From NCBI GenBank assembly GCA_964016885.1, contig OZ024740.1, positions 344,720,001 through 344,784,000 of the forward strand: a DNA stretch of 64,000 bases, in the 5' to 3' direction. A program made the translations under genes and the position numbers. This stretch comes from Eledone cirrhosa. Its lineage: Eukaryota. The notes under the pieces are model-generated. The model made no database searches. It was not told the DNA's origin and saw only the letters and a program-made list of their open reading frames with translations. This document shows positions 297-60,619 of this stretch, in pieces. The number at the start of each line of letters is the position of its first letter. Within the stretch, counting starts at the first letter, position 1.

Positions 297-3250
297 CATA
301 GGTTTCGGCCAGTATTAGCCAAGGCCATGTCTAACTTAATAGCACCACCTGGCGTAGTTTTACAAATTCGTGTTTGGGCACCATAGCCCACTTGAGCAGA
401 GAGTTACTGTTTACGGAGGCATATCCGGGTTTAGGAGGATTATCCTGGATTTCTTGAAGGAAATTTGTCCAAAGAATTCTTGAACTTGATGGGGTCTGTC
501 TCTACTTTGATGTGTTTTGGTGTAATGTTAAAGAGTGCAGGGCCAATTAAGGTGAAATAATTATGCCGTATTGTTGTTATGAGATGCGAGTGAGATTTGT
601 GTCGTGGGCGGATAGCACGGGGCCCAAGCCTTGGCTGTACATTAAAGGTGATGCCAACATCATTTGGGCAAAGCTGATGGAATATTTTCCTCATCATGCA
701 GATGATGTAGCGTTCACGGCGACGTTGGAGAGAATAAAGTTTGAGCTTTTCTAATCGACTCCAATAGTCAAGGCCTGTCATGTCATCTATCTTTTTTGTT
801 ATTGACCTTTGGGGTGCTTCAACTTTCATGATACTTTGTTTCGTGTGGGGTGACCACAGTGGACAACAGTATTCAAGGTGGGGTCGGGAAAAAGTGGAGA
901 AGAGAAGGAAAACAGTGTGTATATCTCTCGACTGGAAAGTTCTGAGAATCCAGGAACACATTCTGAAGCCATATCAACTTTGCTGTTTATATGAGTGGCC
1001 CAGCTTATATTGTTGTCCACAATTACTCCCAGGTCTCTGATGTTATTGGATGCCACTAGAGTTTCAGGGCATCCTTTTTTCCAAAGTGGATTAATTCAAA
1101 CTTATCCTCATTCAACAGCATATTATTCATTTCTGCCCATTGGATAACAGCCAGTATGTCTGACTGAAGGCAAGTCCGGTCACCCACTTCATTGATGACC
1201 CTTTGGAGCTTGGAATCATCTGCGAAGATTTTTATGTTGCTGTGCTTGATGATGTCAGTAATGTCATTAATGTAGATGATGAAAAGAAGTGGGCCCAACA
1301 CAGTGCCATGTGGGACGCCACTGCTAACTTTAGCAGGGCTTGATTTTACTCCTTCGACTACAACATGCTGGCTTCTGCCTGTCAGGAAACATTTAATCCA
1401 CTGTAGTAACCTTCAAGAGACACCAACATTGGATAGTCTTTTACAGTAGAATATTATGATCAACCCTGTCGAAGGCCTTGCTGAAATCAAGGTAGATGAC
1501 ATCAGTGTTGGAGCCCTCTCCCAAGCCTCTCAAAACATCGTCAAAATGATGGAGGAACTGCGTTAGGCAGTCCCTTCCATTACGGAACCCATGTTGGTTG
1601 GAGTTCAGCAGGCCATTGCTTTCAAGAAAGTGGGTTATTCGTGATCTCACCCCCTTCACCCTCTCAAATACCTTGATACTATGAGAGGTGAGTGAGATCG
1701 GACGGCAGTTCACTGCAAGTGACTTATTTCCATTTTTGAAGACTGGGACAGAAAGGTTTCAGGAATATAGCCAGTGTCCAGTGAGTTTCTCCAAAGATTA
1801 GCAGAGGAGATGCAAGTTGGCGTCGACACACCTTCAGGACACAAGCAGGGAACCTGTCGGGGCCTACTGCTGAATTGTGTTTAATTTCATTTATTACCGC
1901 TAAGACATCAGGGGCGCCAAACGTTATGTTTGATATAGTGTGTTGGGGATTAACATCATTGATACAGCCCAGATCGGCCATATCAGGATTGCTAAAAACA
2001 GAGCAGTATTGTTACTGCAGTATCTCGCCTATGGTTTTGGCATCGCCTTGGAGTGTGCATTTTCATCAACTAGGGGAACAACAGTGGAGACGGTGACCTT
2101 GTGTTTTTTAGCAAATGAAAAGAAGACTTTAGGGTTGAGTTTGATTTTCTCAATGGCCCACCTCTCTTCAACTATTCTCTGGTTATTGATGATGGTCATC
2201 ATGCATTGCTGGAGGTTATATTTGTTTGACTCAAGCATGGCGATAGCCATCGAATGCGTTGCTGTTGGCCGTATTTTAGTGTGTTAATTTTTTTGTTTGT
2301 TCTTTCAATTTTTCTGATAATTGTTTTTCTGTTTTGGGGGATACTGCACTTGGTTTTTTCACAGGTTTTGGTGGGGTATGTTTTGTACATATATTTGTGA
2401 CAGTGTCTACAAAGATCTGCCAAGATGTTTTGATGTTGGTGGAAGTGTATGCGTGTGTAAAATACCAGTCGACATGTGATAGTTCGTTCATAATTGCATC
2501 CCGGTTGGCATTGTAGAGATCCATGTTATCAAATGGGTGGGCTGGAAAGACGACTCTGGGATTTGCTTTCGGCGGGTGGAATCTCAGGTTACAAAGAACC
2601 ATGTCATGGTCTGAGAGAAGGGTTTTTTCCACTGTAATATTATGCATAGTGTTAGTGTGGTTACTAAACACTAGATCAGAGAATATTCTTCTGGTGCCTC
2701 GTTGGTGCAAGGACAAGTTGGGACAAGAAAAACTCATTCATGAAGTCAAGAAGTGACTCGACAGCTTCTTTGTCAGTGTTTGAAGTTGTGGTGCCTGGTT
2801 TCAAACTACATGTAGGCCAATCAACACAGGGTAGATTAAAGTCTCCCATCAAAAGTATGTTGCTAGAATTGCACTGTTTAATAAAGCATTTAATACTCTT
2901 AAGGCATTCTTTGAAGCAGTTTAAGGGTGTTTGTGGTGGCCTATAGAGCCCAACTAATTGGCTTTATTGTGCGCAGTGACTGATTTACAGTATCCATTAG
3001 AAAATGATGTGTTACCCTCTGCCGTAAAGGAACCATGCAGGAAAATGGTAGTTCCACCCTTCCTTCTGCCAACACGATCCGCACGGATGGTTGTGAAATT
3101 TCTCACTCTTACTTCGGCCTCCAAGTGGGAGTTGTCAAGGTGGGTCTCAGTAAGAATGAAGAAGGTGATGTGAAATGGATGGTTACAAACCCAATGAATT
3201 GAATCTTCCATTTCTGTGCATTGATGGATGGGCTGATACCTTGTGTATTG
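297..3250 (-). mobile_element. Decayed CR1-type LINE ORF2 (APE endonuclease + RT), fragmented by frameshifts
   Basis: Collinear minus-strand fragments: EN (LTETHL..RADR, 2954-3211; SDHDMV, 2276-2737), RT (RPISLTS, QHGFR, YLDFSKAFDRVDH, 1441-1713; LGPLLFIIYIND..FADDSKL, 1056-1301), C-terminus (RPHLEYCCPLWSP..LYSLQRRRERY, 440-961). Both ends abut (TA)n. Confidence 0.9.
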
Positions 3251-6819: not shown

Positions 6820-8900
6820 GGAAAGTTTTGTGAAATTTATGTTTACAAGCCGAAAATTCCCCCAGATTTTTTGTTTAAGATGTGGTCTGTGGCGTAGAGT
6901 ATTTCCAGGGCCTTAGCGGCGCAGAGGTCACATGGTCTTTTATTTCCGTTATACGATCTAGCCCTAGCTAGGATCTCCCAGTGTAACTTATATTGGGTGT
7001 GCTTGTCTTTTAGTCTCCAGATATAAGCTGAAATGACGTCATATTCCTTCTTAGAGAGTAACGAAAAGAATGGGTATGCATGTAAAGACGCTGCTTGAAT
7101 CTACTGACGGTTAACCCTATGTAGGCCCTACGGAAAGTGGGTGTTTCAGCCTTACATTTGTAGACAATGTTACCAGAGAGGCATTTCCCGGATAGGGGGC
7201 AATCAACACGATTCCTACAATTAGAGTTAGTACTAATTACAGGGGTGCACGTGTTCCTACGACTAGGTAGTTTAGCTAAATTTGAAGCTGTGGTGTTATG
7301 TACAAGGTTAGGTGTCGTAGAGTAAGACATGTTAATAGTATTTCTATTAAAAATGTTACTATATTTATGTGTAGGGGGAAAATGCTTCGTAATAAGGGAT
7401 AGAAAGATCTTAGCTAATGGTGTGGCCACCTCCATATTATATGGTGGGTTATACCATATAATGCGTCTTCTAGGTCTATTCTCGTACTCTGTATATGCTA
7501 CCTTATCGACAAATCCACTCCGAGCAAGAGCTTCATTGTAATATGTGGAATGGTCGTTGAAAATATGCTCGTTAGTAGATAAACGGGAAAGCCTCAACGA
7601 AACGTTTCTTACCAGGTTCTTGGTTATGCTGGCAGGGTGGTTGGAATGCTTACTTATGTAATTAAGAGTAGCATTCAGCTTTCTATACGGGTAATACAAG
7701 CCATTCGATAAATTGAGGGTAACGTCGATGTAATTAACGACCGAGAGGTTGGCCTCAACCTGTATAGAGAGGTTGAAGCCTTTAAAGATGGCTGTGAGTT
7801 TTTTCTGAACCTGTCGCAAGCACGAGGGCCGCACTTAGTCATGGTCAAAAGACCATCATCACGGTACAAACCACTGCCCACTTTGCGGAATTTGTCCTTG
7901 ATAGAGAAAAGAAGGAAAAGGCCGATAAGATCAGTAACCTCCGCAGAATCGCTGGCACCCATATTCACGTCGAATGGGGTACTATTGGATTTTTTAATCC
8001 AAATAGAGTCGTCGAAATTAATCACCGACTTATGGGCATTGAGCATGACATCAACTTCGAAATCCTTAACCACTGTGAGTGTTTTAGCGAAATTGATAGC
8101 TCTAAGTAGAAGTGGTAAAGTGATAGAGGAGTAGTAATTGTTGGTGTCGAATTGGATAAAGCGACAATGTTCCTTGTTGCATATGCCGTTGAACCAATCA
8201 ATCACCGCGAAAGAATTGTGCCACAGTGCAAGAGGGGCCAAACTTCTAATTACAGGTATAATTCTATCAAGAATCCTTTTACTAAGTCTACCTAAATCGG
8301 ATTTCGTAGGGTTAGTAAGCCGAATAGAGGGGTTGTTCGGAAAATTGGATTGGTGATCCTTCAGGGTAAAGTGGGGAGAAATAGGGTCCAGAGGTTCGTT
8401 CCGGTCCAGGAAGTTGAGATCAGATGTGATTTTAAACCCAGCATCGTTGATTTCATTGATGACGCACCGATTAGTTTTACGGTAATCCTTAGTTACAGCA
8501 TTATGTAGTAGTTGATAGTAAGTACTGCGCTCCACTTGATATAGGTTGCCAGTTTTGTCGGAATGGACGTGCACGACATTAGAATCCTTAATAGAACGAA
8601 TTCTATTATTCAGGTCCTGCTGGAAGGAATTGTTCCTATTCCGAAATTTGATACTCCGTATGAGTTCCAAGACATCATTTTCGAAGGGTAGCAATGCTGG
8701 GTTACACGGAGGGTTATTATAGGTTTTAAACCCAAATGTATCCTGTTTGTTGTCTGCTTTACGCGGATTATCGAAATAAAAGGCACGCCAACGCAACCTT
8801 TTAATGAACGCGTCTGTTTTCTGTATCAGGAGTTTTAGGTATGTTTTCCTGCTTGGTACGGGTATGTTCTTTGTAGAAATATTCAAATGTTATTTCTGCA
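6820..8900 (-). pseudogene. PLE polyprotein (RT + Cys-rich linker + GIY-YIG), frameshifted near 7800-7830 and 7020
   Basis: STKNIP..FIKRLRWRA, FIQFD..YYSSI, FDVNMGASDSAEV, LYRDDGL, IIWYNPPY, NCR..CPLSGKC..VYKC..YIGLT..FKQR..H..SF; read manually downstream, PCDLCAAKALEI. Confidence 0.88.
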
Positions 8901-14696: not shown

Positions 14697-15103
14697 TACA
14701 CAATGTTATAATTAATGTAGGATTCTTACAAACTGCTTTTTTAAAATATTCATTATGTATATATATATATGTGTATATTTGTATGCATGAATATATATAT
14801 GTCGTGTATCCGTTCAGTTTGAGTACTTCCAGTACGTATAAAGCCGCAGTCTCTAGCAACCACCGTTGCTCGTTTGTTCAACACTGACAAAGGAACGCTG
14901 TACTAGCCGTACTAAGAGTGGAAAATGAAATTTCGTTTCATTATTGCCGTTTATCGTTTTCGGTGCACCCGGCCGATTAACCCACTCGATATGCAAATTG
15001 GGCTACTCAGCCGTTAATATGCATAAGGAAAGTATATACTTTCGGACGTTCAACAATCTGGCAGGAAGGTATACGTTGCTGACGATAGCTAACAAGCTGG
15101 AAA

Positions 15104-16319
15104 CTAGTACAGTGTTTCTTTGTCAGTGTTGAACAAAAGAGCAACGGTGGTTGCTAGAGACTACGGCTTTATACGTACTGGAAGTACTCAAACTGAACGG
15201 ATACACGACATCCACCACAAACCGTGCCAGAAAGAACAGAGGACACCACATCCGAGGCACTAACACTTGCTTCCTGAAGCTCCCACACTTCAGTGAACAA
15301 ACAACAACAGCCATCCGCAGAGCTATCAGACGAGAGGGACTAGATATCCAACTGGCCCACTCAGGTTCTTCTCTACGCGGTCAGCTAACCAAAAGACACT
15401 CCACCAGACATGACAACTGCTGCAGACTAGCCAACTGCCCCATCAACGACATAGACCTATGCCACCAGGCTTACGTCGTATACAGACTAAAGTGTGACAA
15501 ATGCAACAACTTCTACGTAGGTAGCACCACAAGACCACTCCACATAAGAATAAAAGAACACCTCAATACTAACGCTTCCTCATTTAAGAAACACCTAGTT
15601 AAATGCAAAAACACCTACAAAACCATAACAGTTATGATAGAACTAAGGAAAGAAACATCGGCAATCTTAGAATTTAGGAAGCACTAATTATAGACAAAAC
15701 ACAATCACCAATCAATAATAGACTAGAACTCAACACCCAATTTATAACTTGATAGAGCTTCTAGCCCCATATTTACACCCCCCCCCCCACACACACACGC
15801 ACACACGCACGCACACACACACACACACACACACGCTTACACCTCCACTTATTCTCTCTCACACAGACACACACAAAACCAGTTCTAACACGAGATAACA
15901 TCTATCCCCGACATTTACGTATAGACATATCTTCTCACACTCACACACACTCACATACTTACACCTTCATGCATTCTCCCACACACTTAAACAGGCATGT
16001 ATAAAAAAATCCAAAAAAAAAACAAAAACAAAGCCCTCTTAAAGGGAAACTACTCTTTATCTACCTAATCCTAACTCTTTGACATTAGAGATAGAACAGA
16101 TACTCTTTACCATTTCCTGTCAGCATGACTTGGCAAGCTATTTAGAACACTGGTTTGACAGCTTTACTTCCCTCTGAAGAAGAGACATTATCTCGAAAAT
16201 TTAGGACATTTAAATAAATCTAATGTAAAAGACTAATTGTCAACAATATCTTTTGCATTTGCATTCTTTATTCTATGTCCATACCTGCATTGTTTTGGCT
16301 TTATTATACATATACAAAC

Positions 16320-22008: not shown

Positions 22009-24292
22009 GTAAATATCTTTAAGTCGTTTGGAATCCTCGACAATGCAAATGGGTAAATCTCCGTGTAACAAGATCCGGTGGTGGAGAGAGAGATGTAAGT
22101 GGGTGTACGTTGAGATGCATGGTGTGTATAAGATGTTTAAGATGTGTAGAAGAATGAAGGGAAGAGTATAAAGGATAAAATAAAAATAAAAATAACAACA
22201 CAAGAGAGAGTTACCTTGGGAGAGATTTAATTTCATGGCTGCTAGCCAGAATACTCAAACCTATCTTAGATACCTTGCCGGGACACGTTAACAGCTCCGA
22301 GGAGGTGTTGAAGCGCCTGCACTAAATGGATCCCGAAACCAGAAGGAATAACAGATATGCCTTCAGCCTTGATGTAGTCTCTCTCTACACCTCGGTCCCG
22401 GCACTCCCGACCGTCAATATACTGATGGAACGCGTCCAATCCACCGACCTACACTGCTTCGGGCTCACCACCACTGACATCCACCAACTCCTATCCATCG
22501 TCGTCGACAACACCTACTTTGGATTCCTTGACCAAACATACCAACAAACCTCGGGATTGCCCATGGGATCAAGCCTATCAGGTGTGCTAGCGATCTCTTA
22601 CATGGACAACCTCGAACACAAGGCACTCAACGCCTGCCACCCCAACGCCGTAGCCTTTTTCTCAAGGTACGTGGACGATATCCTCATCCTCACATATTCC
22701 CAAGACACGGCGAACAGAATCTATGAGACGTTCAACAACACGGACGAGAACATTGACTTCAGTGTTGAACACCCCAACGAAGACACGAAGACGGGTCACT
22801 TGCCCTCCTCGACTTCCGAATCAACATCACGGAACAGGGAAGGACACACTGCAACTTCTACAGAAAGGCAGCCTGCAGGGACCTGTTCATTCACTACAAG
22901 TCCACCCTCCCTAACAGTGCCAAAAGAGGATACATCACGAACGAGATCGCGCGAATCAAAAACAGATGCAGCGATCCCGCGTGTGGTGTCACTCATACCA
23001 AGCGATTCCTCGAGGTGCTGGAGACGAACGGGTACCCTACCTCGATCACAGACAGAATAGGAGACACCAGAGACAAGAGACAGAGAGGCACCCAAGGCAA
23101 GTGCTTCCTTAAAATGCCACACCTGTGCGAGAATACCACCAACGCTATCCGCAAGGCTACACGGAGGGAGGGCCTCGACATTCACCTGGCCCACTCGGGC
23201 CCCTCCCTGCGAAGATGCCTCTCCAGGAAACCCGGGAAATCTACTGACGCATGCTCCCTCAGAGACTGCCCGATACGCCATGCGAACTGGTGCCTACGCA
23301 CATACGTTGTGTATCAGATAGAATGTGACAGGTGCAACCAATACTACATAGGTAGCACAATCCGACCTTTGCACATCCGGATCAAGGAACACACTAAAAC
23401 CAGGGCCTCGTCCTTCCGGAAACACATAGACAAATGCGGAAACAAAGACGGAGGGCCCATTCTCACAATTCTAGCGACTGAAAGAAACGTCGGCACGTTA
23501 CGTATCAAGGAAGCGCTTTTTATCAAACGGCTGCAACCGCAAATAAACAACCGATCAGAGAGAAGCGAAATGAGATGGCTGGTTTAAGTTAACAAACGAT
23601 GCAGCAACACACAACACACACACACACACACACACAAACGAGACAACTACACACACACACGCACGCACACACAGTAGCATTCCACCATACGAACATACTA
23701 CACTGCCAATACAGAGGAACAAGGCAACAACACATGCATACACACACACACTCAAGCGAGGCAACAACACACGCACACACACACACAGTAACATTTAACA
23801 AACAGGCAGAGAATGGACTGACAGCTAGCGCCACCCCACTCCCTCATTCGGCCGCTGACCTCTGCCCGACCGACCCCATTTCACGCGCACGCGCGCTCTG
23901 CCGAATACCTCAGATATTCAAAACAACAAACAGCAGAGGACGCGTTTCACACCTGTCCGACAGACAACCTTTTCCCCCAGCCCGGAAAAAAACCCCAGTT
24001 GATGGATGTGAATCCGAAATATATAGCGACTATTAAATCTCTCCAAAGGTAACTCTCTCTTGTGTTTTTATTTTTATTTTTTTTTATCCTTTATACTCTT
24101 CCCTTCATTCTTCTACACATCTTACGCATCTTCTACACTCCACGCATCTCAACGTACACCCACTTACAACTCTCTCTCCACCACCGGATCTTGTTACCCG
24201 GAGATTTACCCATTTGCATTGTCGAGGCTTCCAAACGACTTAAAGATATTTACTTATTATTCCACAATGCTTCAAGCAAACTTCAATACTCT

Positions 24293-35677: not shown

Positions 35678-35781
35678 CCCGCTGATGAAGCCGCATAAGC
35701 CGCATAGTTGCATAATATATGCCGACGGATGGTGCAGTGCACCTTACTGCTGCATTAGTGCGGCCGAAACTCGAGTCCGGG
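35678..35781 (+). ncRNA. Type I hammerhead with large stem II insertion
   Basis: CCCG-CTGATGA-A-GCCGCA(63 nt)TGCGGC-C-GAAA-CTCGAG-T-C-CGGG; palindromic ACTCGAGT stem III; GUC site. Confidence 0.85.
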
Positions 35782-36285
35782 AACTATTATAGGCACGCGT
35801 TTAACGTGTGTTGTATTGAAGCGAATAACTATGTGTATACTCTGGGAATGTATCTTACATTGCCCATGACGTACGTTGAGATACAAAAGGTCCTGGCATT
35901 GATAAATATGCTGGGTCCATCAACTCCCTATTATATATATATATATATAGTATAAAGGATTGAAAAATAACACGGATCGGCTGTATAGTAGGGTTTTTTC
36001 CAAGTATTAACAAATGTTTCATTAGTATGTTGTGTCTGAAAACTGCTGTCCGCCGTATGCCTTCGATTTTAATTACAGTTGACACCCAACCAAATTCTGA
36101 AAATCCTGATTTGGTGATACTGTGCGTTACTATTTATAATTACATGAAAAATAAGAAGGATAATAATAAGAAAGAAAATATAAGGATGAGGGGGAATTAG
36201 GATAATGGCATGATAAAAATAATAATAATAATAACATCAACATGGATTGCCTTAAACGATACATCGTTAACTTATATATATATAT

Positions 36286-37429
36286 ATATTAAATTCAAGG
36301 GGTATATATATATAATTAGACATAGTCACAGATATATATATGAGTTTGGCAACCTTTCACGGCGTGGCTCGATGAAGAATTAATTAAGCAAATAATCATT
36401 AATCAGAGCTATATATAAAACTGCAAGTCTGAAGAACTATTAGATAAAATATTTACAGTATTTCCTCTCCTAGTCCGTATAAATCAACCACATAAAAAAT
36501 CATTTAGAGGAGGCTATAAGTTTAAAATGTAATTATGAAGAAATAATAGACAAATGACACAGACTATCTTCCGCGATGTACAGCCATATGACATTTATCT
36601 AATTATTTCTTTTAGCCTGTAGAAATTGACTAGACAAATAATTAACTACACGGAGTTAGGTACAACATAGAAGTTTGAAGAAAAAATGCACATGACTTTT
36701 ACCAAAATTCCTCTAGTCCCTACCACCGGCGGTTTCGTGCCACTCTTTTCATATACCCGATCTTGGATCTATCCACGAAAGGTTGTCAAAATCATATACG
36801 TATCTTTGACTATGTCTAATTATATATATATATACCCCTTTGAATTTAATATATATTCAGGTAAGGTTGATTAAAACTTTAGGCAGTATTCGGCTGCGCT
36901 TTCTAGAAAATAGCCTACTCGCCGACAGGCACCAATCAAACATTTCTGCCTTGACCGCTAGCCACGTGATAGTTCTTAGCCATTTTGAATTCATTTCTGG
37001 CGGGGATCAGGGTAGGAAATATTTAGTCCGGTCTGAGGTATCTCCTGATGAGTTCCAAGCCTCGTGAATAGATCCAAGATCGGGTATATCTAAAAAGTGG
37101 AACGAAACCGCCGGTGGTCGGGACTAGATGATTTTGGTAAAGTTTATGTGCATTTTTTTCTTCAAGCTTCTATTTTTTACCTAACTCCGTGTAGTTAATT
37201 ATTTGTCTAGTCAATTTCTATAGGCTAAAAGAAATAATTAGATAAATGTCATATGGCTGTACATCGCGGAAGATATCTCTATCATTTGCCTATTATTTAT
37301 TCATAATTACATTTTAAAATTATAGCCTCGTCTAAATGAATTTTTAAGTGGTTGATTTATACGGACTAGGAGAGGAAATACTGTATATATTTTATCTAAT
37401 AGTTCTTCAGACATGCAATTTTATATATA
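36286..37429. mobile_element. ORF-less fold-back element with nested inverted repeats and a hammerhead
   Basis: 36411-36778 is the reverse complement of 37062-37429; 36286-36357 is the reverse complement of about 36777-36854. Confidence 0.85.
37021..37129 (+). ncRNA. Type I hammerhead with extended stem I and enlarged loop II
   Basis: TCTC-CTGATGA-GTTCCA(40 nt)TGGAAC-GAAA-CC(GCCGGT)GG-T-C-GGGA; possible outer helix atttagtcc/ggactagat. Confidence 0.87.
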
Positions 37430-37579
37430 CAAATATATATATATATATATATCTACCAACTCATAATATTATTATATTATATCATAACATTAAATCATAA
37501 CTTTTTTAACACTACATGTGAAGTCATTATTTTCCTTTTTTTCAAATATACCTAACTGTACCAAGGATCTCACACATTT

Positions 37580-37622
<43 letters not shown>

Positions 37623-37691
37623 AATAAAGTTTCAGCGAGAATCGCATTTTCGGCGGGCAGGAAAAGCGAAGCGAAACGCAAAAATCAGAAA

Positions 37692-37766
<75 letters not shown>

Positions 37767-38258
37767 CGCGCGCGCGTTTGTGTGTGTTTGATGTGTTCGT
37801 GCGTGAGTGTGTGTATATTAGCCAATCAAATTTAAACTATATTTTCACATTTTCTTCGCTACATTCACCTCTTTCTGGCAAGTATTCTGGAAAATATTGA
37901 TATTGTCACGTTACTTTGACGACGATATCATTATGGCTTTAGTACAGTTAAAAAGAGATAATCTATTAAACATTTCATACTTCATATTTGTTTAATTGCA
38001 TAACTCAAGTGAAATCAAAAGAAAATGACAAAAGAATGTATTTCATTGAATACCTCGCGCCAGTACTGAATAGACAACGACAGCGATTCGATTTGATTTA
38101 GTTTAATTACGGTCAATTTGACCTATTCTGCAATGTTTATTAACAACTATTTTATTTACGAAGCAGAAATAACATTCTTAATTACATAGGTGAAACAAAG
38201 ATATTCCACTTAATTTAATTAACCGTCCTTTATGTCTTACTCATTCTGATTTACTCTC

Positions 38259-38304
<46 letters not shown>

Positions 38305-38333
38305 TCTCTCGCTCTCTCTATCTATCTCTCTCT

Positions 38334-38397
<64 letters not shown>

Positions 38398-38542
38398 TCT
38401 CCCTTTGTCCCCCCTCTCTCTTTCTCTCTCTCTCTCTCTCTCTGACCTCCAGTAGATAACTGACGAAGGAAAATTTTCTCCCGTTCTGGCTTTCCTCTTT
38501 TAATAAGTACATCGTGTCCAGCAGCTACACAGCCCATGTTTA

Positions 38543-38598
<56 letters not shown>

Positions 38599-38694
38599 GC
38601 TTAGAGTTTAGACTCAGAGAGGTCATTTACAATCATTTCAGCTCTAGGAATTGCTTCTGAGCAGTATAAATATATATATATATATATATACATG

Positions 38695-38728
<34 letters not shown>

Positions 38729-38729
38729 C

Positions 38730-38761
<32 letters not shown>

Positions 38762-39020
38762 TTAGAAACACACAGATACATGCGGACACACACATATATA
38801 CATGAATGCATCCGCACCCAAATGTGAGTTAAGGGTGCCAACTTCACCGATGTTGCTCAATGAATGACTGGGACAGACCAATTCAGTTTGAACCAGACTG
38901 AACCAGTATCAGAGTTAAAAATACATTATGAAGAGAGAAGAAACATTTAGATATAATTAGTAATAAAATTTTCTTTCTCACGTCGTGTAGACGCGTTCTT
39001 GAGACTAGTAAAATGAGGTA

Positions 39021-39108
39021 TCCTCTTGATAAGTCGGCAGACCTCGCAAGGACTCTATATCTTTGATATATTGTTTTTGTTTATGCCACGAAACTACGTA
39101 GTCGAGGA
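39021..39108 (+). ncRNA. Type I hammerhead, U3-A8 variant (copy 1)
   Basis: TCCTC-TTGATAA-GTcGGCA(44 nt)TGCCAC-GAAA-CTACGTAG-T-C-GAGGA. Confidence 0.87.
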
Positions 39109-39611
39109 ATTTAGGAACAGTTTAGGTATGATACATTTTATTACTAATTATATCTAAATGTTTCTTCTCTCTTCATAATGTATTTTTAACTCTGATACTG
39201 GTTCAGTCTGGTTCAAACTGAATTGGTCTGTCCCAGTCATTCATTGAGCAACATCGGTGAAGTTGGCACCCTTAACTCACAGTTGGGTGCGGATGCATTC
39301 ATGTATATATGTGTGTGTCCGCATGTATCTGTGTGTTTCTAAATATATTAATAACTCCCTCTGGTCGAGCAATCTTTGAAGTGTGGGGACAACTGGAAAG
39401 CTTCCATTACTCATACTTCTCGCCTTCTTCACTACCTCTTCTACGGCCTCGATATGAATACCCCCTCCGCCTCCGTGGTATTTTCTTCGTGGTTATAAGA
39501 GGCTTAGCTCTGTTTCTCGACCGTTATATCGCGTGACTATCTCCCCCTCCGCCTTTTGGGATTCTTTCTCACGTCGTGTAGACGCGTTCTTGAGACTAGT
39601 AAAATGAGGTA

Positions 39612-39699
39612 TCCTCTTGATAAGTCGGCAGACCTCGCAAGGACTCTATATCTTTGATATATTGTTTTTGTTTATGCCACGAAACTACGTAGTCGAGGA
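39612..39699 (+). ncRNA. Type I hammerhead, U3-A8 variant (copy 2)
   Basis: Identical to 39021-39108. Confidence 0.87.
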
Positions 39700-39768
39700 A
39701 TTTAGGAACAGTTTAGGTATGATACATTTTATTACTAATTAAATCTAAATGTTTCTTCTCTCTTCATA

Positions 39769-39879
<111 letters not shown>

Positions 39880-39920
39880 TACATATATATATACATATAC
39901 ATATACATGTATATATATAC

Positions 39921-39976
<56 letters not shown>

Positions 39977-39977
<1 letters not shown>

Positions 39978-41048
39978 CATGTTATCCATGTGCAACCAGC
40001 AGTATTCTTCTCCCCATTTTTTCACATATATTTACCTATACTGCGATTCTGTTTTTTTCTCTCTCTCTCTCTCTTGCTGCTCCATCGCTCTCTCTGTTTC
40101 TCCTGCTTTCTTTCGCCCCCTCTGTCATGTCAGTTAACTCTTCCTCACACTTCCACTCACTCACTCACTGTTTCTCCTCTTCACACTTCACCCCGTTCGC
40201 GACGAAATCATTTTCTCTCTCTCACATTTGAATTCGCTGCTGAAAGGTCTTTTTTCTAAGCGCTCATATATTCACCTAGCTTATGCTAACAGAATAACTA
40301 TGAAGCTTGTTCCCTTCCTTCTACGGTTAGCTATCCTCTTTGTTGTTATCTTATCTCACTCGCTTTACGCGTTTTAATTGTCCTAATAACTTAATTTAGT
40401 TATTATTGCACCGACGTGAGGTATATGATTTTTAATGCAATAAAATATCTATGATCATCGGCAAATCACTGATGAGGGACTTATTTTATTACATGTTATC
40501 CATGTGCAACCAGCAGTATTCTTCTCCCCAATTTTTCACATATATTTACCTATACTGCGATTCTGTTTTTCTCTCTCTCTCTCTCTTGCTGCTCCCTCGC
40601 TCTCTCTGTTTCTCCTGCTTTCTTTCGCCCCCTCTGTCATGTCAGTTAACTCTTCCTCACACTTCCACTCACTCACTCACTGTTTCTCCTCTTCTCACTT
40701 CAACCCGTTCGCGACGAAATCATTTTCTCTCTCTCACATTTGAATTCGCTGCTGAAAGGTCTTTTTTCTAAGCGCTCATATATTCACCTAGCTTATGCTA
40801 ACAGAATAACTATGAAGCTTGTTCCCTTCCTTCTACGGTTAGCTATCCTCTTTGTTGTTATCTTGTGTCACTCGCTTTACGCGTTTTAATTGTCCTAATA
40901 ACTTAATTTAGTTATTATTGCACCGACGTGAGGTATATGATTTTTAATGCAATGAAATATCTATGATCATCGGCAAATCACTGATGAGGGACTTATTTTA
41001 TTACATGTTATCCATGTGCAACCAGCAGTATTCTTCTCCCCATTTTTT

Positions 41049-41050
<2 letters not shown>
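39977..41050. repeat. Tandem repeat of a ~513-bp unit (2 units + ~50 bp)
   Basis: acatgttatccatgtgcaaccagcag begins at 39977, 40491 and 41003; near-identical units; (TA)n on both sides. Confidence 0.95.
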
Positions 41051-41138
<88 letters not shown>

Positions 41139-41165
41139 TATATATACATATACATATATATATAA

Positions 41166-41899
41166 TCAAGGTTTAGCAAATAAGAAAAAGTTTCAAAATA
41201 AATTTCAAAAAATTCACTGTACTCACTATGGTTACCTTTACCGAATCGGTTTCGAGTCTCAAAAATAAATGGACAGTCCTTGCGGCCTTCCAGAATTGCT
41301 TCCACATCATTCAGTCTCATCTCAGGAACAATTTTGAATAGCGCCAGTTACTTTATTAACTAGCCATTGAACCACATTGGCATATGGTTGGACAATACAT
41401 GTGTCCCTGGACGCTTTTTGCGTGTAGGGATATATACTTTATTATTATTATATCTTGGTCGAGATAAAATTTGGTCGTTTTGATTGCTGCTATTTATAGT
41501 GGTAGTAGACTCACCTCCCTGCCTCTGCTTCTATCTTTACACATGGCACTTGACAGACTTGCTTCCACATCATTCATTCTCATCTCAGGAACAATTTTGA
41601 ATAGCGCCAGTTCGTAATTTGAACTCGGGAATTTTATATTCTCCGAGTAAAAAGAACCTTCTGACGAGAGCTTATGTTTAAAATGGAAGGCCGCAAGGAC
41701 TGTCCATTTATTTTTGAGACTCGAAACCGATTCGGTAAAGGTAACCATAGTGAGTACAGTGAATTTTTTGAAATTTATTTTGAAACTTTTTCTTATTTGC
41801 TAAACCTTGAGTATATATGTTCTGGCTCGTTAATTTATTAACTAGCCATTGAACCACATTGGCATATGGTTGGACAATACATGTGTCCCTGGACGCTTT
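41166..41899. mobile_element. ORF-less fold-back element with hammerhead and internal direct duplications
   Basis: 41166-41292 is the reverse complement of 41684-41810; direct repeats 41298-41349/41561-41612 and 41353-41418/41834-41899. Confidence 0.85.
41656..41742 (+). ncRNA. Type I hammerhead with long stem II
   Basis: ACCTT-CTGACGA-GAG(..AAATGGA..TCCATTT..)CTC-GAAA-CCG(ATT)CGG-T-A-AAGGT. Confidence 0.87.
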
Positions 41900-42021
41900 G
41901 TGAAAAAACAACGTTGTCCTTGATGGACACGAAGCGAAGAGTATTTGGTTACTCTTTTTCTCTTTTACCTGTTCCAGCCATTAACGTAGAAAAATGAGAA
42001 AACTCATCGCTAGAAAAGCCG

Positions 42022-57160: not shown

Positions 57161-60100
57161 TTACAGACACATACTCAGAGAAGGCCCATTCATTCGGGCC
57201 ATACTTGCTTCTCTCACCCATCTTTCAACAAAATGCTGGGAAGAGAGCACTTCCCTCTCTACCCTGATTTTCCTTTTCAAATGAAATTTGAAAAAGTTAA
57301 TCAGGGCATCACCGAAGAGGTAAGTGCTCGTCTTCAGCCCTTTCAAACGTGTCCACCATACTATCTCTTTCGCCATGGCCACCAGACAGATAAAAACTGC
57401 CTGCCCTTCCCGGCTAAAGGAAGGGGGCGGGGCTATCCTCACGATGGACTCAGCTGATAGCTGGATAGGTCCTACACGTGACAGCAGGTGTTCGACATAA
57501 ACCCACAAGTCAGCAATGCTCGGACACTGGACGAGTGCGTGCAGGACGGTTTCGTCGCCCTGCGCGCATCTCGGACATGCCCGGCTGACGGCACCTCCAT
57601 GCCTGTAGAGTTTATCCCGAACTGGCAAAGCTCCTCGGTAGCACTGCCAGGCCAGGGATTTCTGGAAGTTGTCCATAGGCCCCGGCCCGAAAGTCCTTCC
57701 GAAGAGATTGGCTAGTTGATTTTCGTCGACGCCTAGAGTTTCTCCAAGTACGTCGTCGCTCTTCCCCTCCACTAATCCCCTATAGAACGCCAAGGTGGAG
57801 TTTCCACCGATCACATTGCCCGATTGGTCGAGGGCTGTGAGCGCCTGAAGAAATTCCAGTCTCCAAGCGCTCCCTCTCGGTCTTCGCTTGTCCCAGGACT
57901 GCAGCTCCGTCAAGGAGACGAGCTGGGGAAAAACGTGTCTTGCAAACGGCGACCACACCTGATCACCGTCGAGGAAGAGGTGGAGATGTCGTAGCCTGAA
58001 CGCGTGTCTGCGCATCATCAGCCACGGCATGCCCAGCCCTCCACGTAGCGGGTGTTGACAGCAGACGGACCGCCTGACCATCGGAGCGCGTCCCTTCCAC
58101 AAGAAGCGAAAGAGCAAACGCTCCAGCGCAGTCAGGCGGGGCTTAGGACAAGGTACGACGGTCAGGCGGTAGTAGATGACGGATGCGATGTACGCATTCG
58201 CCACCTCCGCTCGACCTTTCAGGGATAGCTTCCTCTCGGCCCATTTCTGGGTGAGATAAGCCACCCTTATCGTCACCTCGTCCCAGTTTTTGTCCGTCTG
58301 GAGGTCTGGACCGAACCAGACCCCTAGCAATTTAACCGGTCCGTCCGTCCAGCGCCCGACGACGCTGTTGGACGGCATGGACCTGCCTCTCCAGGTGCCG
58401 AGCTGCAGGCCCACTGACTTTTCCTGGTTGATCATTGCTCCTGTCACCGCTTCGTATTCTCTTAGTGTAGTGCCGATCGCCTCGATGTGTTTGGCGTTCG
58501 ACACCACTACGGTGCCATCGTCGGCATATGCTGACACGGATCTTCCGCATCCTAGTTCGCGCGGGACCCCCCTCAACGTCTCCAGTTTGTGCAGTAATGG
58601 CTCGAGAGTCAATACGTACAATAGGGACGAGAGGGGACATCCTTGGCGGACCGAGCGCATGATGTTGAACGGTTCCGAAAGGTGACCGTTCACTCTCACT
58701 ACAGAGCAGATGTCGCTGTGCATGGCAGCGATCCAGCCTCTGAAGACGGGCCCAAAGCCAGCCGCCCTCAGGACTGCCGCTAGGTAACGATGGTCGACCC
58801 TATCGAAGGCTTTCGACTGATCTAAATTGATCAAAGACCCACCCGTGCCAGGTTCCCTAGCTACCCTCTCTACGATGTATCGCATGAGGTGGAGGTTGTC
58901 GTGGATGGATCTGTCGGGAATGGCGCATGTCTGCGCCTCTCCCACCAGACCATCAACGACAAGCGCCAACCTCTTTGCTAGCACCTTGGCCAAAATCTTG
59001 AACTCTGTGTTTAGCAGAGTTATGGGCCTAAAATTATCTATGTTATCCCCCTTGTTCGGATCCTTTCTCAGCAGCGCCACCGCTCCTCGGCTCACAGAGC
59101 TGGGAATTCTCCCGTTCTGTTGCCAGTTGCAGTAGACGTCCGCCAAGAGGCCTCCGAACAAGTTTGGCATTTGTACGTAAAGTTCATAGGGCAGACCATC
59201 CAAACCAGGCGATTTACCCCTTGTGCAACTAGTCATTGCATCCCGTACTTCAGCGGTTGTTATCGGCTTTTCGCAACACTCCGCCTCAGTGGCCGAAAGC
59301 CGCGGCAGTCCGTCGAGGTAGACACTAAAGTCCATCCCTCGATCCGGCCCGCCACTGCCCCCGAACAGTTGAGCGAAGTGTCGCTGAAAAGCTTCACACA
59401 TTTGCCCGGGATCGAGTAGCATGCGCCCGTCGTGGTCCACCAAAGACCGGATCGTGCCTTTGTTGCCACGACGCGCCTCCGCCACTCGGGCCTATTGAAC
59501 GGCTTTCGTCCCCTCGTGTCTGAGAGCACGCACCCTAGCTCTGACAACGCAGCCTTCGTGCTTTGCATTGAAGAATTTGTCAAGGGCCAATTTCGCCGCA
59601 AGTACGTCGGTCGCGATGCCTTTGCTAAGCGCCTCATCTAATTTTCTAACTAATTCTCCCTCTGCTCTATTTTTCTCTATTGCTAAAGTCTTACTAAACC
59701 TAATGGACTCTATTCTAATTGCTCTTTTCAGAGCAAACCACCACTTGTTGTTGACGATGGCCCCCGTCAACGCCCGCTTAACTAGTTCGCTAATCCGGTC
59801 TCTGTAGGCCTTGCGCGCTGGTAAGGACGCGTTTAACTTCCAGTAGCCGGGTCCTCGTCTATGAAGCCTATCTAAGTCAAGCACACAGATCACGAATTTG
59901 TGGTCCGTGTAGCTGACTATCTTGAATTGTGGACAGCCTATGCTAGACCTATCTATTTCCCTACAAAATACTCTATCTAGATATGATCTGGATGACCCTA
60001 TGCGATTTTTCCAAGTCCACATTGGTACATTCGGGAAATCCATTCGGTACCTGTCAGACAGTTCAAAACGTCTGAGCAGGTTGGTGAGACTCTTGCACCC

Positions 60101-60580
60101 TCCTTCCCTATCCACTAATCCCACACAATCCCAGCGTGCATCTAAGATCCCGTTCCAGTCGCCCACTAACACTAAAGAGCGGGACGTTCCAAGAAAAGTC
60201 TCCAGACGCCGGAAGAAATCAGGCCGCCCTGCTCCTGTCGGGGCATAGACGGCCACTAACCTTAAAGCTTGCCCGTCTCCGCTGGTCACGTCCAGCACCA
60301 CCAACTTACCTTCTGGGTCCAGGAAGATGGCCCGTATGGCAAGATCCAAACCTCTCCGAAAAAGCACAGCAACTCCTCCCCCCGATCCCGGACGGCTGGG
60401 AGATGCGTACACATCGTAGCCGCCGAAGATCGGTGCGAAAGCCTGTGCTTCGGAGATTCTGGTCTCGCTGATGGCCACTACATCTATGTTTAGTGACCTG
60501 AGGTCGTTGAGCAGGTGGCCCTGCTTCCATGACGACCCCAAGCCACGCGCATTTATGCTGCATATTCTGAGTGAGGTCAT
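57161..60580 (-). pseudogene. Tx1/L1 ORF2 (APE endonuclease, RT, C-terminal zinc finger) with one in-frame TAG at 59492-59494
   Basis: SINARGL..SET..VYAP..GDWN..YLDR..TDH..PGYWKLN; KSPGLDG..FRPITLLN..LDQSKAFDRV..RQGCPLS..YADD; CPRC..ETVLHALVQC. The two track ORFs share one frame. Confidence 0.95.
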
Positions 60581-60619
60581 GTTGAAAAGGAGTGGAAAAG
60601 ATGGGAAAGACCACTTACC

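What the first reader, a model, noticed from the sequence alone, without database searches (positions are those of the whole stretch)
37021..39108. Shared GAGG/CCUC pseudoknot in two otherwise unrelated large-loop hammerheads
Seen: both HHRs have UGAGGUA directly 5' of stem I (37034-37040 and 39014-39020). Both have a complementary segment at the start of loop II: GCCUCG (37059-37064) and ACCUCG (39041-39046). This allows a 6-bp pairing although the stems differ completely. Known: stem I-loop II tertiary contacts allow HHR activity at low Mg2+, and pseudoknot contacts are best known in type II HHRs. Inference: a conserved type I pseudoknot architecture.
Basis: partly seen in the sequence, partly recalled or inferred. 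Interest (0 to 1): 0.75.

Follow-up and report, generated by a model that had tools for sequence, protein, structure and literature searches.

The report
Pseudoknot-braced hammerhead in animal retrozymes
Thousands of small jumping repeats in this animal genome carry a hammerhead (self-cutting RNA) motif in which a short upstream strand and the start of an unusually large loop stay complementary across some twenty related repeat families even as their letters change, so the pairing likely braces the ribozyme, although cutting itself has not been tested.

Summary
Both motifs are complete type I hammerheads with palindromic stem III. They sit in non-coding repeats of about 704 and 591 nt with Penelope-type insertion anatomy; the second family has at least 6,457 copies. 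The pseudoknot is well supported but is not a fixed GAGG/CCUC. Over 51 hammerhead-like clusters from this genome, cognate flank/loop II duplexes beat mismatched ones (0 of 100,000 permutations). The pairing changes in register across families: GAGG/CCUC, GAGU/ACUC, GAGC/GCUC, UGAAAAGA/UCUUUUCA, GGAAAAU/AUUUUCC. 'Otherwise unrelated' is probably wrong: intermediate families link the two, so the shared letters likely reflect descent. Stem I/stem II pseudoknots are known in all three hammerhead types (Perreault 2011). I found this build in neither Rfam nor the Penelope/retrozyme papers I could read; three relevant papers were not held. Cleavage is untested, and a genomic cut-site test was only suggestive. 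The scan noted pseudoknotted hammerheads before on other DNA of this genome and in other genomes. Verdict: new variant of a known kind.

The parts
36280..36778 (-). Inverted, 5'-truncated copy of repeat family A (about 704-nt unit), ending in (TA)n
36777..37430 (+). Direct copy of family A carrying HHR1; 3' end at the family's main fixed end (about +311 from the cut site), next to (TA)n
37034..37039 (+). HHR1 pseudoknot 5' strand (UGAGGU)
   Evidence: covariation
37041..37044 (+). HHR1 stem I 5' strand (pairs with 37120-37123, 4 bp)
37045..37051 (+). HHR1 core CUGAUGA
37052..37057 (+). HHR1 stem II 5' strand (pairs with 37098-37103, 6 bp, G10.1-C11.1)
37059..37064 (+). HHR1 pseudoknot 3' strand (GCCUCG), start of loop II
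37066..37091 (+). HHR1 predicted hairpin inside loop II (two mismatches in this copy by eye; cleaner in the family), followed by an A-rich linker 37092-37097
37104..37119 (+). HHR1 GAAA, palindromic stem III (ACCGCCGGUGGU, 37107-37118) and predicted cleavage after C37119
37137..37142 (+). Splice-donor-like hexamer 18 nt after the predicted cut site (function untested)
   Evidence: sequence; motif recurs in 16 of 23 clusters
38751..38969 (-). Inverted, 5'-truncated copy of repeat family B, ending in (TA)n
38971..39779 (+). Direct more-than-unit copy of family B (591-nt period) with two hammerheads, ending in (TA)n
38995..39003 (+). Family B distal helix 5' strand (9 bp with 39110-39118); not a feature shared across families
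   Evidence: cross-family test p=0.72
39014..39019 (+). HHR2 pseudoknot 5' strand (UGAGGU)
39021..39025 (+). HHR2 stem I 5' strand (pairs with 39104-39108, 5 bp)
39026..39032 (+). HHR2 core UUGAUAA (U3-A8 variant)
   Evidence: variant described in PMC4209133
39033..39039 (+). HHR2 stem II 5' strand (6 bp with 39084-39089, C39035 bulged)
39041..39046 (+). HHR2 pseudoknot 3' strand (ACCUCG)
39047..39079 (+). HHR2 predicted hairpin inside loop II, starting at the base directly after the pseudoknot strand
39090..39103 (+). HHR2 GAAA, palindromic stem III (ACUACGUAGU, 39093-39102) and predicted cleavage after C39103
39605..39699 (+). Second tandem copy of HHR2, the likely dimer partner on the same transcript
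41645..41742 (+). Third large-loop hammerhead of the same build (family D2); this copy's pseudoknot is worn, the family's is UGAAAAGA/UCUUUUCA

Best explanation
These are type I hammerhead motifs in non-coding, Penelope-type tandem repeats, in which the strand just upstream of stem I and the start of loop II keep 4-8 complementary bases across families, and this pairing likely forms a pseudoknot that holds stems I and II side by side so that the RNA would cut itself efficiently. Shown: core and stems, covariation of the pseudoknot, a predicted hairpin right after it in loop II, palindromic stem III, more-than-unit and inverted insertions in (TA)n with two fixed 3' ends, no long ORF. Inferred: the pseudoknot replaces the usual loop-loop contact and probably stacks on the loop II hairpin; two tandem copies pair through stem III to become active; cleavage gives unit-length RNA that may circularise and is copied by a Penelope-like reverse transcriptase/GIY-YIG protein acting in trans (partner not identified).
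For: Cognate vs non-cognate duplex energy: all 51 clusters -4.12 vs -2.51 kcal/mol, 0 of 100,000 permutations; 21 multi-member clusters -5.25 vs -3.04; the 23 clusters of this build (picked by eye) -6.53 vs -4.22; the other 28 not significant (p 0.34); two shifted control windows not significant. With per-strand anchors, positions P1-P4 pair in 82 of 88 cells against 37-52 when slid; P4 is paired in 21 of 23 clusters with all six pair types (shuffle mean 10.6). On a tree built with the pseudoknot masked, P4 reads G-C, U-G, U-A and C-G in successive groups, the G-C and C-G groups each at 100/100 support. Stem III dimer energies are -7 to -23 kcal/mol in 22 of 23 clusters against 0 to -3.9 as hairpins. 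Fixed 3' ends: family B 24 and 22 of 54 ends at about +80 and +245; family A 25 and 5 of 40 at about +311 and +439. Precedent: disrupting a stem I/II pseudoknot cut the rate 20- to over 100-fold at 0.5 mM Mg2+ and compensation restored it (PMC3088659 passages).
Against: No cleavage or probing data. The nested minimum-energy folds of both window copies are not the active fold (HHR1 -30.4 vs -15.3 constrained; HHR2 -31.5 vs -26.6, pseudoknot and dimer not counted). In HHR2 GAGG can also close a local hairpin with the stem I strand (-2.4). Family D1 has an A-G mismatch inside the helix (0 of 10 sequences with P1-P4 all paired), c29 was mis-anchored, c26 and c18 each break one pair, and P5-P6 are weak. 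The anchor rule was refined after a first version mis-registered four clusters (vs 62). Clusters are related, so permutation p-values overstate independence. The cut-site test is weak: 25 junctions at the cut vs 15 and 18 at two controls, p 0.077. PLE hammerheads are often slow or protein-assisted (PMC4209133; PMC11167929).
Confidence: 0.7

Rival explanations
1. The pairing is real but serves something other than catalysis: the pseudoknot and hairpin form a binding or packaging signal for the Penelope-type protein, or protect the RNA, while cleavage stays slow or protein-assisted.
For: One G-C pair (P1) is invariant in the anchored table (partly by construction) and the outer positions keep sequence bias. 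An anole PLE hammerhead cleaved only with protein and cleavage was not needed for insertion in vitro (PMC11167929 passages). Few copies start at the cut site: 25 by an exact two-mismatch pattern in a family of over 6,400.
Against: The geometry is tied to the core: the first paired G lies 9-14 nt before C3 and its partner 11-15 nt after the core in all 23 clusters, as expected of a stem I/stem II contact. The inner pairs vary freely in letter, which fits a structural helix better than a sequence-read site.
Confidence: 0.17
2. The upstream strand is a folding switch. It either pairs with loop II (active) or folds back on the stem I strand while loop II pairs with the 3' strand (inactive), so it mainly restrains cleavage, for example in the circular monomer.
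For: HHR2 has two GAGG and two CCUC segments, and its minimum-energy fold contains the GAGG/CCUC local hairpin. A weak local hairpin is predicted in 10 of 23 clusters.
Against: Those hairpins are -0.2 to -2.4 kcal/mol and absent in 13 of 23 clusters. Loop II vs the 3' stem I strand shows no cognate preference (p 0.58).
Confidence: 0.08
3. There is no selected pairing: purine-rich flanks and pyrimidine-rich loops inherited from a common ancestor match by composition and descent.
For: Non-cognate pairs among the 23 clusters also pair fairly well (-4.22 kcal/mol); the clusters are related; D1 is imperfect.
Against: Cognate advantage with z -5 to -6.5, absent in control windows and in the other 28 clusters. 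Two-sided changes on well-supported branches. A-U vs G-C swaps between sister families c8 and c9.
Confidence: 0.05

Closest known systems
Hammerheads with a stem I/stem II Watson-Crick pseudoknot (Perreault et al. 2011, PMC3088659; passages and section 10 seen, figures and datasets not)
   Same: A base-paired helix joins the stem I side to the stem II side; reported for about 40% of representatives and for all three types, including the human C10orf118 ribozyme (5-bp pseudoknot).
   Different: The tested example was a metagenomic type II with a one-pair stem II. In the passages seen there is no loop II hairpin after the pseudoknot strand, no palindromic dimer-type stem III and no retroelement link. 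Fig. 2B and Dataset S1 were not seen and could hold a similar type I case.
[quoted passage not shown]
   Same: Type I, short helix I (4-5 bp), long helix II, palindromic stem III for dimer activity, U3-A8 core variant, opposite-strand pairs of motifs.
   Different: In the 56-row alignment (Fig. S3 text) loop II is 3-9 nt and no tertiary contact was recognised; here loop II is about 35-50 nt with a pseudoknot strand and a hairpin.
Metazoan non-LTR retrozymes (Cervera and de la Pena 2020, PMC7229834, passages; Li, Clavereau and Pollet 2026, bioRxiv 10.64898/2026.07.22.740005, parts 1-2 of 5)
   Same: Non-coding tandem repeats with one type I hammerhead per unit, thousands of copies, proposed non-autonomous derivatives of Penelope-like elements.
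   Different: Classical retrozyme hammerheads use non-canonical loop 1/loop 2 contacts and units near 220-390 nt (51-972 nt in the 2026 survey). Units here are about 480-700 nt and use a Watson-Crick pseudoknot; expression and circles are not shown here.
Pseudoknot (PK) hammerhead (Zhan et al. 2024, PMC11300833; part 1 of 6 seen; the RAGATH-1 label comes from an earlier scan note)
   Same: Hammerhead core with a 6-bp pseudoknot as the stabilising contact.
   Different: There the pseudoknot replaces helix II and involves a stem-loop tied to helix I; here a full 5-7-bp helix II is kept and the pseudoknot lies beyond it.
Type III hammerheads of toad and termite HDV-like RNAs (PMC7936874, passages)
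   Same: Longer helix II (6 bp), 5-bp first stem I and a Watson-Crick contact between the stem I side and loop II, in animal-associated RNAs.
   Different: Type III topology, internal loop of helix I as partner, extra hairpin on helix I rather than in loop II.

Membership tests
Hammerhead ribozyme, type I | Core CUGANGA (or U3-A8) and GAAA with NUH cleavage triplet, in type I order | tested here: met
Hammerhead ribozyme, type I | Stems I, II, III can form, G10.1-C11.1 closing pair | tested here: met
   (4/6 bp HHR1, 5/6 bp HHR2; stem III palindromic)
Hammerhead ribozyme, type I | Self-cleavage at the predicted site | not testable with these tools
   Only an indirect genomic test, inconclusive
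Hammerhead ribozyme, type I | Match to an Rfam hammerhead model | tested here: not met
   No hit at gathering score in the window; no hammerhead family among 52 matches to E 10 in 36200-42000
Pseudoknot-stabilised hammerheads (Perreault 2011) | At least 4 bp between the stem I side and the stem II side, kept across homologues | tested here: met
Pseudoknot-stabilised hammerheads (Perreault 2011) | Pseudoknot needed for fast cleavage at low Mg2+ | not testable with these tools
   needs kinetics
PK hammerhead (Zhan 2024) | Helix II replaced by the pseudoknot | tested here: not met
   A 6-bp helix II is present in both window motifs and predicted in most of the 23 clusters
Minimal PLE hammerheads (Cervera 2014) | Short palindromic stem III favouring dimers | tested here: met
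   22 of 23 clusters
Minimal PLE hammerheads (Cervera 2014) | Small loop II, no recognised tertiary contact | tested here: not met
   loop II of about 35-50 nt with pseudoknot and hairpin vs 3-9 nt
Non-LTR retrozyme / non-autonomous Penelope-type element | Tandem repeat with one type I hammerhead per unit, many dispersed copies | tested here: met
   591-nt period and 6,457 matches; family A more-than-unit copies, 41 scored matches from 557 candidates
Non-LTR retrozyme / non-autonomous Penelope-type element | No protein-coding capacity | tested here: met
   longest stop-free frames 86 aa (B) and 89 aa (A)
Non-LTR retrozyme / non-autonomous Penelope-type element | Penelope-type insertion anatomy (inverted 5'-truncated copy, fixed 3' ends, microsatellite target) | tested here: met
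   compared with PMC8557442 passages. The two 3' ends are about 130-165 nt apart, not the 30-40 of the described tail
Non-LTR retrozyme / non-autonomous Penelope-type element | Homology to the terminal repeat of an autonomous Penelope-like element | tested here: inconclusive
   PLE ORF fragments lie near some copies but with no consistent link; the Naiad_Ovul consensus has a different, reordered core by eye
Non-LTR retrozyme / non-autonomous Penelope-type element | Expressed as linear and circular unit-length RNA | not testable with these tools
   no RNA holder listed

The most novel reading that the evidence does not exclude
A distinct, unlisted hammerhead architecture: type I with a full helix II, a 5'-flank/loop II pseudoknot stacked on an extra loop II hairpin, and dimer-dependent stem III. 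It has radiated into at least 23 sequence clusters and about ten thousand or more copies in one animal genome, and makes Penelope-type hammerheads fast cutters at cellular Mg2+, unlike the slow minimal ones. The families give a natural, interchangeable library of pseudoknots.
Probability: 0.45. Interest if true: 0.65.

Novelty: new variant of a known kind. Interest (0 to 1): 0.52.

Why it matters
Penelope-associated hammerheads were described as lacking recognisable tertiary contacts and cutting poorly, which left open whether they matter. Here a large radiation keeps a helix-type contact under evident selection, so the catalytic fold is likely needed for these elements to spread. It gives a direct test: break, restore or swap the pseudoknot between families. 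The motif is invisible to Rfam and to short-loop descriptors, so such ribozymes are probably undercounted in invertebrate genomes. The underlying principle (a stem I/stem II pseudoknot) is known, which limits the surprise.

Tried and rejected
Rfam scans gave no hammerhead. DNA similarity searches with HHR2 returned nothing because the words are too common; patterns worked instead. A very loose pattern was mostly noise (64,841 vs 39,691 control). MAFFT did not align the pseudoknot strands across families, so I used anchor rules in scripts and did not run the pair-counting tool. A shared distal stem I extension was rejected (p 0.72). Loop II pairing with the 3' stem I strand was rejected as a conserved feature (p 0.58). 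No RNA holder was listed. Laying four contig runs of unknown kind showed the 591-nt junction in all four and no variant above 10% in the pseudoknot, which is uninformative. The search for an autonomous partner failed. Cut-site test: raw 25 vs 15 and 18 (p 0.077). Restricting after the fact to distinct inverted-copy junctions, counted by eye as about 11 vs 3 and 5, gave p 0.024; controls begin with AT/TA and collect extra (TA)n junctions by microhomology. The local background could not be fixed, so I treat it as suggestive only. Not held: Lunse et al. 2017, and two ids recalled as the Hammann 2012 review and the 2010 intronic-hammerhead paper; any of them, and the unseen figures and datasets of PMC3088659, could already show this build.

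Full report
OBSERVATION. Both are complete type I hammerheads. HHR1 has core CUGAUGA at 37045, a 4-bp stem I, a 6-bp stem II and predicted cleavage after C37119. HHR2 has the U3-A8 core UUGAUAA at 39026, a 5-bp stem I, a 6-bp stem II with one bulge and predicted cleavage after C39103. A second copy of HHR2 follows 591 nt later. Rfam finds neither. On their own the two duplexes are only moderately unlikely against shuffled loops (p 0.03 and 0.007), so homologues were needed.

CONTEXT. The window lies in a 3.0-Gb genome, is rich in (TA)n and holds Penelope-type fragments: RVT_1 and GIY-YIG hits in 3 of 5 frames tested. HHR1 sits in a unit of about 704 nt (41 scored matches from 557 candidates). 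HHR2 sits in a 591-nt unit with 6,457 exact 16-mer matches against 1 for the control. Neither unit has a stop-free frame above 89 aa. Both insertions consist of an inverted 5'-truncated copy and a direct copy, flanked by (TA)n. 3' ends are fixed at two places per family: B 24 and 22 of 54 ends near +80 and +245 from the cut site; A 25 and 5 of 40 near +311 and +439. 5' ends are scattered. This matches the tandem/inverted anatomy described for Penelope-like elements (PMC8557442 passages) and internal initiation at two sites (PMC11167929 passages), though the spacing here is larger. I read the elements as non-autonomous Penelope-type retrozymes (PMC7229834 passages; bioRxiv 10.64898/2026.07.22.740005 parts 1-2). 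No autonomous partner was found.

HOMOLOGUES. Core-only patterns that assume no pseudoknot gave 3,483 matches vs 21 control, 2,535 vs 300 and 6,131 vs 2,737. I held 30 loci per search plus 60 stretches picked by eye from the first 100 listed places of these searches. So the sample is small, mostly from the start of contig C1, and not random. A descriptor scan of 236 loci and the window gave 171 distinct hammerhead-like sequences in 51 clusters, junk included.

COVARIATION. Using fixed windows (-16 to -6 before the core; +6 to +19 after it), each cluster's flank pairs better with its own loop than with another's. All 51 clusters: -4.12 vs -2.51 kcal/mol, 0 of 100,000 permutations. The 21 multi-member clusters: -5.25 vs -3.04. 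The 23 clusters that I assigned to this build by eye: -6.53 vs -4.22. The remaining 28: -2.15 vs -2.03 (p 0.34). Shifted windows and the rival pairing of loop II with the 3' stem I strand give nothing. The helices read UGAGGU/RCCUCG (A, B), UGAGGUG/UACCUCA (c28), GAGU/ACUC (c20, c23), GAGC/GCUC (c21), UGAGCG/CGCUCG (c24), UGAAAAGA/UCUUUUCA (D2), GGAAAAU/AUUUUCC (E), UGGAAA/UUUCCA (F), GAGAAG/CUUCUC (G), UGAGAAU/AUUCUCA (c9), UGAAAA/UUUUCA (c8). With per-strand anchors (117 of 129 sequences anchored), P2, P3 and P4 are each paired in 21 of 23 clusters; P4 shows all six pair types against a shuffle mean of 10.6; P1-P4 pair in 82 of 88 cells against 37-52 when slid. The first anchor rule mis-registered four clusters and still gave P4 20 of 22; I refined it after looking. 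In the lineage homologous to family A over the whole unit, a tree with the pseudoknot masked (26 rows; family A limited to its first six sequences, five of which entered) shows P4 as G-C, U-G, U-A and C-G in successive groups, the first and last at 100/100. The G-C to U-G step may be a paired deletion rather than two substitutions. Against: D1 has an internal A-G mismatch in all its anchored majority, P5-P6 are weak, and clusters are not independent.

REST OF THE FOLD. Loop II is not a plain loop. After the pseudoknot strand comes a predicted hairpin, then a 4-8-nt A- or U-rich linker, in most of the 23 clusters (c30 folds poorly). In HHR2, D2 and F the hairpin starts at or next to the last pseudoknot base, which suggests coaxial stacking (inference). 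Stem III is palindromic, with dimer energies of -7 to -23 kcal/mol in 22 of 23 clusters against 0 to -3.9 as hairpins, like the dimer-dependent motifs of PMC4209133. A distal stem I extension exists in family B but is not shared (p 0.72). The nested minimum-energy folds of the two window copies are alternative structures, so the active fold would depend on pseudoknot, dimer or protein.

RELATEDNESS. HHR1 and HHR2 are 0.44 identical, within background (0.36 +/- 0.05, max 0.51), and their units do not hit each other. But U3-A8 families bridge them: HHR1-c16 0.72 with whole-unit homology, c16-c28/c29 0.51, c28-HHR2 0.60 with a weak flank hit (71-72% over about 110-120 nt, E 1.7e-5). The shared GAGG/CCUC is therefore more likely inherited than convergent. 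The middle link is no stronger than the background maximum.

ACTIVITY. Not shown. Copies of family B beginning exactly at the cut site: 25, all true junctions, against 15 and 18 at two nearby controls (p 0.077). The controls start with AT/TA and so collect extra (TA)n junctions; a post hoc restriction gives p 0.024. I count this as a hint only. The idea for this test came from earlier scan notes.

COMPARISON AND NOVELTY. Stem I/stem II pseudoknots occur in about 40% of hammerheads and in all three types, and are needed for fast cleavage where tested (PMC3088659). The crystallised PK hammerhead differs, since its pseudoknot replaces helix II (PMC11300833 part 1). The 56 published PLE motifs have 3-9-nt loops. 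Passages of PMC10085705, PMC6765202, PMC13725137, PMC7936874 and PMC12192606 did not describe this build. Nine literature searches listed nothing on it, but three relevant papers were not held and figures cannot be seen. Earlier scan notes report pseudoknotted hammerheads with a C-A closing mismatch in this genome; these probably correspond to my clusters c8/c9, which have that mismatch. A sequence look-up for HHR2 in the notes found nothing.

VERDICT. Real, conserved, covarying pseudoknot (about 0.9); that its job is to speed cleavage, about 0.7. New variant of a known kind. Interest 0.52.

Noticed in passing
window 37137-37142 and 39126-39131; clusters: A splice-donor-like motif lies about 10-25 nt after the predicted cut site in 16 of 23 clusters of this build and 3 of 28 others (pattern written after looking). 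Penelope elements carry introns near their terminal repeats; splicing here is untested.
   Followed up: partly
window 35682-35780 (+): Another large-loop hammerhead-like motif (CUGAUGA, about 75-nt stem II domain with two hairpins by eye, palindromic stem III, GUC site) without a clear upstream pseudoknot; a different build.
   Followed up: no
window 15079-15109 (+): Small-loop Penelope-type hammerhead next to a GIY-YIG fragment (15133-15687); related motifs occur in tandem at about 480-nt spacing in L239.
   Followed up: partly
window 7010-8889 (-), 22326-23587 (+), 15133-15687 (+): Broken Penelope-like RT/endonuclease fragments; two LINE-type frames at 57161-60619 (-) and 440-973 (-) by recalled motifs.
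   Followed up: partly
L237:1510-3862 (+): A 784-aa uninterrupted Penelope-like frame beside family E repeats; no large-loop hammerhead linked to it was found.
   Followed up: partly
L105, L103, L232 (clusters c8, c9): Same pseudoknot build but with C-A instead of G10.1-C11.1 and a UU cleavage triplet; sister families swap an A-U for a G-C pair in the pseudoknot.
   Followed up: partly
L129, L172, L182, L195, L230, L104, L029: Several other multi-copy large-loop type I hammerhead families lack the upstream pseudoknot (no cognate signal) and may use other contacts.
   Followed up: no
family A and B 3' ends: Each family has two fixed 3' ends 128 and 165 nt apart, both ending in TAT(A) next to (TA)n, longer than the 30-40-bp tail described for Penelope-like elements.
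   Followed up: partly
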